Below are positions 24,801-27,800 of a stretch of 64,000 nt of DNA, in pieces. Numbering within the stretch: position 1 is the first letter of the stretch; each line of letters begins with the position of its first letter. Source of the DNA: Escherichia coli (GTDB lineage Bacteria; Pseudomonadota; Gammaproteobacteria; Enterobacterales; Enterobacteriaceae); assembly GCF_003334785.1 (NCBI RefSeq), contig NZ_QOWV01000002.1; one strand, 5' to 3'. The position numbers are program-made.

Positions 24801-27800
24801 ATCAGGAACCTGAGGCCTGATAACTGATAAGGGCAGGGCCACTGGCTCTGCCCTTTTGCTATTCTCACCGTAACGAATCAGCGGATACCATGATTATCAA
24901 ACGCACTCCTCAAGCCGCGTCGCCTCTGGCTTCGTGGCTTTCTTATCTGGAAAACCTGCACAGTAAAACTATCGATCTCGGCCTTGAGCGCGTGAGCCTG
25001 GTCGCGGCGCGTCTTGGCGTCCTGAAACCAGCGCCATTTGTGTTTACCGTTGCGGGTACGAATGGCAAAGGCACCACCTGCCGTACGCTGGAGTCGATTC
25101 TGATGGCGGCAGGGTACAAAGTGGGCGTCTACAGTTCGCCTCATCTGGTGCGTTATACCGAGCGCGTACGTGTGCAGGGCCAGGAATTGCCGGAATCGGC
25201 CCACACCGCCTCTTTTGCGGAGATTGAATCGGCACGCGGTGATATTTCCCTGACCTATTTCGAGTACGGTACGCTGTCGGCGTTGTGGCTGTTCAAGCAG
25301 GCACAACTTGACGTGGTGATTCTGGAAGTAGGGCTGGGCGGTCGTCTGGACGCAACCAATATTGTCGACGCCGATGTCGCGGTAGTAACCAGTATTGCGC
25401 TGGATCATACCGACTGGCTGGGTCCAGATCGCGAAAGTATTGGTCGCGAGAAAGCAGGCATCTTCCGCAGCGAAAAACCGGCAATTGTCGGTGAGCCGGA
25501 AATGCCTTCTACCATTGCTGATGTGGCGCAGGAAAAAGGTGCACTGTTACAACGTCGGGGCGTTGAGTGGAACTATTCCGTCACCGATCATGACTGGGCG
25601 TTTAGCGATGCTCACGGCACGCTGGAAAATCTGCCGTTGCCGCTTGTCCCGCAACCGAATGCCGCAACAGCGCTGGCGGCACTGCGTGCCAGCGGGCTGG
25701 AAGTCAGTGAAAATGCCATTCGCGACGGGATTGCCAGCGCAATTTTGCCGGGACGTTTCCAGATTGTGAGCGAGTCGCCACGCGTTATTTTTGATGTCGC
25801 GCATAATCCACATGCGGCGGAATATCTCACCGGGCGTATGAAAGCGCTACCGAAAAACGGGCGCGTGCTGGCGGTTATCGGTATGCTACATGATAAAGAT
25901 ATTGCCGGAACTCTGGCCTGGTTGAAAAGCGTGGTTGATGACTGGTATTGTGCGCCACTGGAAGGGCCGCGCGGTGCCACGGCAGAACAACTGCTTGAGC
26001 ATTTGGGTAACGGCAAATCATTTGATAGCGTTGCGCAGGCATGGGATGCCGCAATGGCGGACGCTAAAGCGGAAGACACCGTGCTGGTGTGTGGTTCTTT
26101 CCACACGGTCGCACATGTCATGGAAGTGATTGACGCGAGGAGAAGCGGTGGCAAGTAAGTTTCAGAATCGGTTAGTGGGCACGATCGTGCTGGTGGCGCT
26201 GGGGGTGATTGTACTTCCAGGGCTGCTGGACGGGCAGAAAAAACATTATCAGGATGAGTTCGCGGCTATCCCGCTGGTGCCGAAAGCGGGCGATCGTGAT
26301 GAGCCTGATATGATGCCAGCCGCCACCCAGGCGTTACCGACGCAGCCGCCGGAAGGCGCAGCGGAAGAGGTGCGGGCAGGTGATGCCGCAGCACCGTCGC
26401 TCGATCCGGCCACTATTGCAGCCAATAACACCGAGTTTGAACCGGAACCTGCACCGGTCGCCCCACCGAAGCCGAAACCGGTGGAGCCGCCTAAACCAAA
26501 GGTTGAAGCACCACCTGCGCCGAAGCCAGAACCGAAGCCGGTCGTGGAAGAAAAAGCTGCACCGACGGGTAAAGCCTATGTTGTGCAACTGGGTGCGCTG
26601 AAAAATGCCGATAAAGTGAATGAGATTGTCGGTAAGCTGCGCGGTGCCGGTTATCGGGTTTATACGTCGCCATCCACGCCAGTGCAGGGTAAAATTACCC
26701 GTATTCTGGTTGGGCCGGATGCCTCGAAAGATAAGCTGAAAGGTTCGCTGGGTGAGTTGAAGCAACTTTCTGGCTTAAGTGGCGTGGTAATGGGCTATAC
26801 GCCGAATTAATACGGTCTTGCCTGATGCGACGCTGGCGCGTCTTATCAGGCCTACGCAGGGGTAGAACCGTAGGTCGGATAAGGCGTTTACGCCGCATCC
26901 GACACGCATTGCCCGATGCCGCAAAGGCATAAAAAGTCGATGGCGTTGAATATTTTTTCAGCGCCATTTTTATTGATGCGCGGGAAGGAAATCCCTACGC
27001 AAACGTTTTCTTTTTCTGTTAGAATGCGCCCCGAACAGGATGACAGGGCGTAAAATCGTGGGACACATATGGTCTGGATTGATTACGCCATAATCGCGGT
27101 GATTGCTTTTTCCTCTCTGGTTAGCCTGATCCGCGGCTTTGTTCGTGAAGCGTTATCGCTGGTGACATGGGGTTGTGCTTTCTTTGTTGCCAGTCATTAC
27201 TACACTTACCTGTCAGTCTGGTTTACGGGCTTTGAAGACGAACTGGTTCGAAATGGGATTGCCATCGCGGTACTGTTTATCGCTACCCTGATCGTTGGTG
27301 CTATCGTGAACTTCGTGATAGGCCAGTTGGTGGAGAAAACGGGGTTGTCAGGCACCGATCGGGTGCTGGGCGTCTGTTTCGGTGCGTTGCGCGGTGTGTT
27401 GATTGTTGCTGCCATTCTCTTCTTTCTCGACTCCTTTACCGGGGTGTCGAAAAGCGAAGACTGGAGCAAATCACAGCTGATCCCGCAATTCAGTTTTATC
27501 ATCAGATGGTTTTTTGATTATCTGCAAAGCTCGTCAAGTTTCTTGCCCAGAGCGTAAGTGCTCTGAGATGTGGCTTAACGAGGAAAAAGACGTATGTGCG
27601 GTATTGTCGGTATCGCCGGTGTTATGCCGGTTAACCAGTCGATTTATGATGCCTTAACGGTGCTTCAGCATCGCGGTCAGGATGCCGCCGGCATCATCAC
27701 CATAGATGCCAATAACTGCTTCCGTTTGCGTAAAGCGAACGGGCTGGTGAGCGATGTATTTGAAGCTCGCCATATGCAGCGTTTGCAGGGCAATATGGGC

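What the first reader, a model, noticed from the sequence alone, without database searches (positions are those of the whole stretch)
26997..27012. PurR operator overlapping the cvpA-purF promoter
ACGCAAACGTTTTCTT matches the 16-bp PurR box consensus and sits just upstream of a TAGAAT hexamer, consistent with purine repression of the cvpA-purF-ubiX transcript.
Basis: partly seen in the sequence, partly recalled or inferred. Interest (0 to 1): 0.2.

Follow-up and report, generated by a model that had tools for sequence, protein, structure and literature searches.

The report
Known PurR operator at cvpA-purF promoter

Summary
The observation and the interpretation are both correct, and both are already known. 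ACGCAAACGTTTTCTT lies exactly at 26997-27012. The window is E. coli chromosome, with the gene order dedD-cvpA-purF-ubiX. The reverse complement of the 16-mer, AAGAAAACGTTTGCGT, is printed verbatim as the PurR ChIP-chip motif of cvpA-purF-ubiX in Cho et al. 2011. A weight matrix built from 26 other published PurR sites scores it 21.8 bits. That is the best score in the 64-kb window (the next locus scores 13.3), and none of 200 shuffles reached it. Published start-site mapping puts +1 at 36-37 nt before the cvpA ATG, which is window 27032/27033. TAGAAT (27020-27025) is therefore the -10 hexamer. It is preceded by TGT, so this is an extended -10. The operator covers about -35 to -20, including the weak -35 hexamer. 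The box and the -10 are a sharp conservation peak across all sampled Enterobacterales. Aeromonas has a variant box and Shewanella has none. The mechanism is promoter occlusion by PurR bound to hypoxanthine or guanine. Novelty: none. Interest: very low.

The parts
26997..27012 (.). PurR operator (PUR box), an imperfect 16-bp palindrome ACGCAAACGTTTTCTT with its central CpG at 27004-27005. The left half ACGCAAAC is perfect. The right half, read on the - strand as AAGAAAAC, departs from ACGNAAAC at one position.
   Evidence: It is identical to the published ChIP-chip motif for cvpA-purF-ubiX. It is invariant or near-invariant in all sampled Enterobacterales.
26996..27001 (+). Weak -35 hexamer candidate TACGCA (3 of 6 matches to TTGACA, 18-bp spacer), lying inside the operator.
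   Evidence: Read from the sequence, given the mapped start site. The promoter scan did not call it because it needs at least 4 of 6 matches. This assignment is an inference.
27017..27025 (+). Extended -10 element TGT-TAGAAT. The -10 hexamer is 27020-27025 and the TG is at 27017-27018.
   Evidence: Its position relative to the mapped start site gives -12..-7 for +1 = 27032. Weighted conservation is 0.97 across 80 distinct upstream sequences.
27032..27033 (+). Transcription start of cvpA p1, at -37 / -36 from the cvpA ATG. It is preceded by the GC-rich discriminator GCGCCC at 27026-27031.
   Evidence: PMC2760140 table, citing Makaroff 1985 and Nonet 1987 (nuclease mapping) and the paper's own DMTSS mapping. 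Converted to window coordinates from the ATG at 27069.
27069..27557 (+). cvpA, the first gene of the regulated operon.
27594..29111 (+). purF (amidophosphoribosyltransferase), the first committed step of de novo purine synthesis.
29206..29775 (+). ubiX (flavin prenyltransferase), the third gene of the transcription unit.
   Evidence: No terminator-like site lies in the purF-ubiX gap. It is listed as cvpA-purF-ubiX.
26939..26968 (+). Terminator-like hairpin followed by a T run after dedD. It would insulate the cvpA promoter from upstream read-through.
   Evidence: This is a consensus match only.

Best explanation
The 16-mer at 26997-27012 is the operator of the E. coli purine repressor PurR, a LacI/GalR-family dimer, at the sigma-70 promoter cvpA p1. 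When hypoxanthine or guanine is abundant, PurR with its corepressor binds the imperfect palindrome. The operator spans about -35 to -20 of the promoter, so bound PurR covers the weak -35 hexamer and the spacer next to the extended -10 (TGT-TAGAAT). This prevents RNA polymerase from binding or initiating, and so represses the cvpA-purF-ubiX transcript. Shown: the sequence, its position relative to the mapped start site, in vivo adenine-dependent occupancy, in vitro binding, and evolutionary conservation. Inferred from established knowledge of PurR: the steric-occlusion step, and hinge-helix insertion at the central CpG.
For: The sequence is at the stated coordinates. The locus is dedD-cvpA-purF-ubiX in all 5426 complete E. 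coli genomes, once per genome, and the intergenic sequence is identical to K-12. The published ChIP-chip motif for cvpA-purF-ubiX is the exact reverse complement, and it was bound only with adenine. The leave-out PWM score is 21.8 bits, the top of the window, reached by 0 of 200 shuffles. Background is 0 sites at >=19 bits in 1.01 Mb. The start site at -37/-36 from the ATG places the box at -35..-20 and TAGAAT at -12..-7. EMSA showed PurR binding to cvpA-purF DNA. cvpA-purF is a member of the Pur-1 iModulon. The operon is transcribed by sigma-70 holoenzyme in vitro and annotated as PurR-regulated. In loci chosen only by the cvpA N-terminal coding pattern, every enterobacterial locus with at least 60 bp of upstream sequence carries ACGCAAACGTTTTC[T/G]T followed by TTTCTGTTAGAAT, about 72 bp before the ATG. 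Weighted conservation is 0.93 for the box and 0.97 for the extended -10, against 0.38-0.57 for the flanks. purF is derepressed about 4-fold in a Yersinia pestis purR mutant (log2 1.98-2.24), and sampled Yersinia species carry the same box. Solved PurR structures exist (1pnr, 1wet and others), and references in held papers title them as PurR-purF operator complexes.
Against: Nothing in the data argues against it. Caveats follow. The primary papers (Makaroff & Zalkin 1985; Rolfes & Zalkin 1988) are not held, so they are cited only through papers that cite them. Supplementary expression tables of Cho 2011 were not available, so the E. coli fold-repression of cvpA, purF and ubiX individually was not seen here. 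The right half-site is degenerate. ChIP occupancy without adenine was below detection.
Confidence: 0.97

Rival explanations
1. The 16-mer is a chance resemblance to the PurR consensus with no regulatory role.
For: Short degenerate palindromes do occur by chance. At <=3 mismatches 0.55 hits are expected per window.
Against: The site has only 2 mismatches, where 0.05 hits are expected. Its PWM score exceeds all 200 shuffles. No site reached 19 bits in 1.01 Mb of background. It is invariant across Enterobacterales while its flanks diverge. It is the published in vivo bound site.
Confidence: 0.01
2. The conserved block is conserved as a core promoter element (the -35/spacer of cvpA p1), or as the operator of another LacI/GalR paralogue (such as Cra or CytR) that shares the central AAACGTTT core, rather than as a PurR site.
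For: The box overlaps the -35 position. LacI-family operators share a central CG and A/T-rich flanks (general knowledge). The extended -10 and GC-rich discriminator are conserved even in Shewanella, which lacks the box, so part of the conservation is promoter-related.
Against: In Shewanella the same core promoter works with a different, more consensus-like -35 (GTGAGA) and no box, so the box sequence is not needed for promoter function. The PurR-specific outer positions (ACGC...) are the conserved ones. PurR itself was cross-linked here in vivo and binds in vitro. The downstream gene is the first enzyme of purine synthesis.
Confidence: 0.02

Closest known systems
E. coli K-12 purF (cvpA p1) operator of PurR (Makaroff & Zalkin 1985; Rolfes & Zalkin 1988; Cho et al. 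2011, PMC3159470)
   Same: It is the same element. The 16-mer, the whole dedD-cvpA intergenic region, the gene order and the promoter are identical.
   Different: Nothing differs. The window is simply in the opposite orientation to the K-12 record, and the wider 3.7-kb stretch is not identical to K-12, so it comes from another E. coli strain.
Other PUR boxes of the E. coli PurR regulon (purT, purHD, purL, purMN, purC, purEK, and others)
   Same: They share the 16-bp motif ACGNAAACGTTTGCNT. Most lie between or over the -35 and -10 elements, which points to control of transcription initiation.
   Different: This site has a degenerate right half (TTTTCTT instead of TTTGCGT). purB and purR use roadblock sites downstream of the promoter, and carAB uses a far-upstream site at -128.5.
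LacI-lacO and other LacI/GalR repressor-operator pairs
   Same: A dimeric helix-turn-helix repressor binds a pseudo-palindrome with a central CG step, and the operator overlaps the promoter (general knowledge; PurR and LacI are compared).
   Different: In PurR the small molecule (hypoxanthine or guanine) is a corepressor that promotes DNA binding. In LacI it is an inducer that releases the repressor (general knowledge; adenine-dependent occupancy).

Membership tests
PurR operator (PUR box) of the enterobacterial purine regulon | A 16-bp imperfect palindrome matching ACGNAAACGTTTNCGT with a central CpG. | tested here: met
   Two mismatches to the perfect palindrome. It scores 21.8 bits on a leave-out PWM, within the range of the training sites (12.1-24.8), and is the top of the window.
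PurR operator (PUR box) of the enterobacterial purine regulon | Occupied by PurR in vivo and in vitro in a purine-dependent manner. | tested here: met
   No experiment was run here. The test was sequence identity with the published bound site. The ChIP-chip region for cvpA-purF-ubiX has the motif AAGAAAACGTTTGCGT and was bound only with adenine. EMSA used a cvpA-purF fragment.
PurR operator (PUR box) of the enterobacterial purine regulon | Located so as to interfere with transcription, either overlapping the core promoter or acting as a roadblock. | tested here: met
   The start site at -37/-36 from the ATG is window 27032/27033, which puts the box at -35..-20 and TAGAAT at -12..-7.
PurR operator (PUR box) of the enterobacterial purine regulon | Controls a gene of purine or nucleotide metabolism. 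| tested here: met
   purF (amidophosphoribosyltransferase) is the second gene of the unit.
PurR operator (PUR box) of the enterobacterial purine regulon | Conserved at orthologous promoters in related species (a phylogenetic footprint). | tested here: met
   Every enterobacterial locus sampled through the cvpA coding pattern that had at least 60 bp of upstream sequence has the box at >=19 bits. Conservation is 0.93 for the box against 0.38-0.57 for the flanks.
PurR operator (PUR box) of the enterobacterial purine regulon | Expression of the downstream genes is derepressed in a purR mutant or under purine limitation. | not testable with these tools
   Literature only. The evidence is Pur-1 iModulon membership, the statement that PurR represses IMP-pathway genes, and Y. 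pestis purR mutant purF log2FC of about 2. The E. coli supplementary tables are not held.

The most novel reading that the evidence does not exclude
The most novel reading not excluded is about promoter architecture, not about the site's identity. An ancient core promoter is shared from E. coli to Shewanella, made of the extended -10 TGnTAGAAT plus the GC-rich discriminator GCGCC. On this reading, the -35 region of that promoter was replaced in the Enterobacterales/Aeromonas lineage by a PurR box. The conserved asymmetry of the box (TTTTCTT in Enterobacteriaceae, TTTTCGT in Morganellaceae) would then tune repression strength against residual -35 function. The GC-rich discriminator would add a second, PurR-independent stringent (ppGpp/DksA) control. 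Comparative-genomics work on the purine regulon probably covers parts of this already.
Probability: 0.3. Interest if true: 0.12.

Novelty: already known. Interest (0 to 1): 0.03.

Why it matters
It matters only as a positive control for the scan. The first-stage reader recognised a textbook operator from raw sequence, and the tools recover all the expected support: the motif score, the mapped start site, the ChIP site and the phylogenetic footprint. The biology is the feedback repression of the first committed step of de novo purine synthesis by hypoxanthine or guanine through PurR. This has been established since the 1980s, and crystal structures of PurR on this operator exist.

Tried and rejected
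1. The generic sigma-70 promoter scan did not call the real promoter, because the -35 matches only 3 of 6 positions. The promoter was placed from published start-site mapping instead.

2. The primary papers could not be read. PMIDs 3058704 and 2991286 are not held, and neither is PMC213288, a PMC id I recalled from memory for another pur-regulon paper. PMC4288677, an id I recalled from memory for a dRNA-seq start-site paper, is also not held.

3. The supplementary expression tables of Cho 2011 are not held.

4. I looked for further PurR sites in the window. The next best PWM scores are 13.3 (42987-43002), 12.7 (54061-54076) and 12.3 (46864-46879). All are below the mean shuffle maximum of 15.5, so they are at chance level.

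5. The published weak fabB-mnmC ChIP site is present at 16629-16644 but scores only 10.2 bits.

6. I looked for a terminator between purF and ubiX that would argue against co-transcription. None lies in the gap. The only terminator-like match is inside ubiX (29433-29449) and is at the frequency expected by chance.

7. I considered a chance match and a site for another LacI paralogue, and rejected both (see the rival explanations).

Full report
**Observation.** The window reads ACGCAAACGTTTTCTT at 26997-27012 on the + strand, and TAGAAT at 27020-27025, 7 bp downstream.

**Chance.**
- Against the perfect PurR palindrome ACGCAAACGTTTGCGT the site has two mismatches.
- It is the only hit in the 64-kb window at <=2 mismatches, where 0.05 are expected and 5 of 100 shuffles gave any hit. 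It is also the only hit at <=3 mismatches, where 0.55 are expected.
- I built a position weight matrix from the 26 other PurR motifs in Table 1 of Cho et al. 2011 (PMC3159470). I left out this site and the fabB-mnmC site, which also lies in the window.
- The site scores 21.8 bits on the - strand reading and 17.4 on the + strand reading. The next best locus in the window scores 13.3.
- The maximum in 200 Markov shuffles averaged 15.5 +/- 1.7 and never reached 21.8.
- In 1.01 Mb of related loci outside the cvpA upstream regions, no site reached 19 bits and one reached 16.9.

**Context.**
- The stretch 26100-29800 matches all 5426 complete E. coli genomes, several at 100% identity.
- The annotated gene order is folC, dedD, cvpA, purF, ubiX, then argT and hisJ.
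- In the window, cvpA is 27069-27557, purF is 27594-29111 and ubiX is 29206-29775, all on the + strand.
- The dedD-cvpA intergenic region is identical to K-12 MG1655, where the box lies at NC_000913.3 2,430,820-2,430,835 on the opposite strand.
- The 96-bp promoter stretch occurs exactly once in every one of the 5426 genomes, at >=95% identity.

**Identity with the known site.**
- Cho et al. 2011 list a PurR ChIP-chip region for the transcription unit cvpA-purF-ubiX with the motif AAGAAAACGTTTGCGT.
- The region was detected only in the presence of adenine. The authors name it among the previously characterised PurR-binding promoters.
- Their coordinates (2,428,842-2,428,857, in an older K-12 version) differ from the current ones by a constant offset.
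- As a check on collinearity, their fabB-mnmC motif ACCAAAGCGATGGCAT turned up at 16629-16644, the window position I predicted from their coordinates.
- PurR binding to a cvpA-purF fragment (-171 to +56) was shown by EMSA in Robertson et al. 2018 (PMC5829826).
- cvpA-purF is part of the Pur-1 iModulon (PMC8376909).
- Maciag et al. 2011 list cvpA, purF and ubiX as one sigma-70-preferring operon regulated by PurR (PMC3141248).
- E. coli PurR has many solved structures (1pnr, 1wet, 1qpz and others). Reference lists in held papers title these as PurR-purF operator complexes.

**Promoter anatomy.**
- Mendoza-Vargas et al. 2009 (PMC2760140) tabulate cvpA p1. The known start site is -37 from the ATG, by nuclease mapping (Makaroff 1985; Nonet 1987), and their own mapping gives -36.
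- With the ATG at 27069 this is window 27032/27033.
- TAGAAT (27020-27025) is then at -12..-7 for +1 = 27032, the canonical -10 position.
- It is preceded by TGT (27017-27019), so the promoter is of the extended -10 type.
- The best -35 candidate is TACGCA at 26996-27001, with only 3 of 6 matches. This explains why the generic scan did not call the promoter.
- The operator therefore covers about -35 to -20, that is, the -35 hexamer and most of the spacer.
- A terminator-like hairpin with a T run at 26939-26968 follows dedD.
- No terminator-like site lies in the purF-ubiX gap. This is consistent with one cvpA-purF-ubiX transcript.

**Phylogenetic footprint.**
- I scanned one genome per species for the cvpA N-terminal coding pattern ATGGTNTGGATHGAYTAYGYNATHAT. 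This pattern is blind to the operator. It returned 120 loci from Enterobacterales, Aeromonas, Shewanella, Idiomarina and some MAGs.
- In nearly all loci cvpA is followed by purF.
- Every enterobacterial locus with at least 60 bp of upstream sequence carries ACGCAAACGTTTTCTT, or ACGCAAACGTTTTCGT in the Photorhabdus/Proteus/Morganella group (24.7 bits), with a few single-base variants such as ACGCAAACGTTTTTGT in Arsenophonus nasoniae (19.1 bits). The genera include Escherichia, Citrobacter, Enterobacter, Kluyvera, Pantoea, Erwinia, Serratia, Rahnella, Yersinia, Photorhabdus, Proteus, Morganella, Moellerella and Arsenophonus.
- The box is followed by TTTCTGTTAGAAT and usually lies about 72 bp before the ATG.
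- In an alignment of 80 distinct upstream sequences I measured sequence-weighted identity to the window:

| Segment | Weighted identity |
|---|---|
| PurR box | 0.93 |
| TGT-TAGAAT | 0.97 |
| 16 bp just upstream of the box | 0.57 |
| Farther upstream | 0.38 |
| 5' UTR | 0.49 |

- Aeromonas has a variant box, GCGCAATCGTTTTTGT (16.9 bits), directly abutting TAGACT.
- Shewanella keeps the core promoter (TCTCTGTTAGAATCGCGCC) but has no PurR box. In its place is a better -35-like GTGAGA. So the box is not required for promoter function as such, which argues that its conservation in Enterobacterales is regulatory.
- In Yersinia pestis, a purR mutant derepresses purF about 4-fold (log2 1.98-2.24; PMC10673613). 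Sampled Yersinia species carry the same box.

**Mechanism.**
- Shown: the site, its position over the -35/spacer of a mapped promoter, adenine-dependent in vivo occupancy, in vitro binding, and conservation.
- Inferred from established knowledge of PurR, a LacI/GalR-family dimer with hypoxanthine and guanine as corepressors (stated): PurR with its corepressor binds the pseudo-palindrome, bends it at the central CpG (27004-27005), and sterically prevents RNA polymerase from using the promoter. This represses cvpA, purF and ubiX together.

**Rivals.** A chance match is excluded by the statistics, the footprint and the published binding data. Conservation purely as a promoter element, or as the operator of another LacI paralogue, is made unlikely by two things. 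The Shewanella comparison shows the promoter working without the box, and PurR itself was cross-linked and gel-shifted on this DNA.

**Novelty and score.** This is the textbook purF operator. Both the observation and the interpretation are correct and already known. The only refinements are the exact position (-35..-20), the extended -10, and the distribution of the box across lineages. Interest is very low.

Noticed in passing
window 26815-26930 (insertion point 26852/26853); locus L123: The dedD-cvpA spacer holds REP/BIME-type palindromic units. In E. coli strain UTME-8 a 1277-bp IS110-family IS621 is inserted in this REP (…TATCAGGCCT|ACGC…), about 145 bp upstream of the PurR box, leaving the operator and promoter intact. 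Strain 15.03CC is annotated with IS621 in the same interval, but its junction was not mapped.
   Followed up: partly
window 16629-16644: The weak fabB-mnmC PurR ChIP-chip motif of Cho 2011 (ACCAAAGCGATGGCAT) lies in this window. It scores only 10.2 bits, below the mean maximum of shuffled sequence (15.5), so by sequence alone it cannot be told from chance.
   Followed up: partly
window 27017-27031; Shewanella loci such as L003, L022, L054 (about 45-70 bp before the cvpA ATG): The extended -10 TGnTAGAAT and a GC-rich discriminator (GCGCC) are conserved from E. coli to Shewanella, although Shewanella lacks the PurR box and has a better -35 (GTGAGA). A GC-rich discriminator suggests additional stringent (ppGpp/DksA) control. 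This is inference only.
   Followed up: partly
Aeromonas loci L012, L025, L053, L065, L071, L121 (52 bp before the cvpA ATG): Aeromonas has a variant PurR-like box, GCGCAATCGTTTTTGT (16.9 bits), directly abutting a TAGACT hexamer. The operator-to-(-10) spacing therefore differs from Enterobacterales, where 7 bp intervene.
   Followed up: no
window 26939-26968: A terminator-like hairpin (12 pairs) followed by a T run lies just after dedD and 29 bp upstream of the PurR box. It is probably the dedD terminator, insulating cvpA p1.
   Followed up: no
window about 26810-27068 (dedD-cvpA intergenic region), - strand: Maciag et al. 2011 report a sigma-S-favoured in vitro run-off signal for the intergenic region upstream of cvpA, 'transcribed in opposite direction'. 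The simple scan found no sigma-70-like promoter on the minus strand here.
   Followed up: no
locus L085, 2033 bp downstream of the cvpA ATG: This is the only PWM hit of >=16.9 bits outside the cvpA upstream regions in 1.01 Mb of related loci (AGGTTAACGTTTGCTC, 17.1 bits). It was not examined.
   Followed up: no
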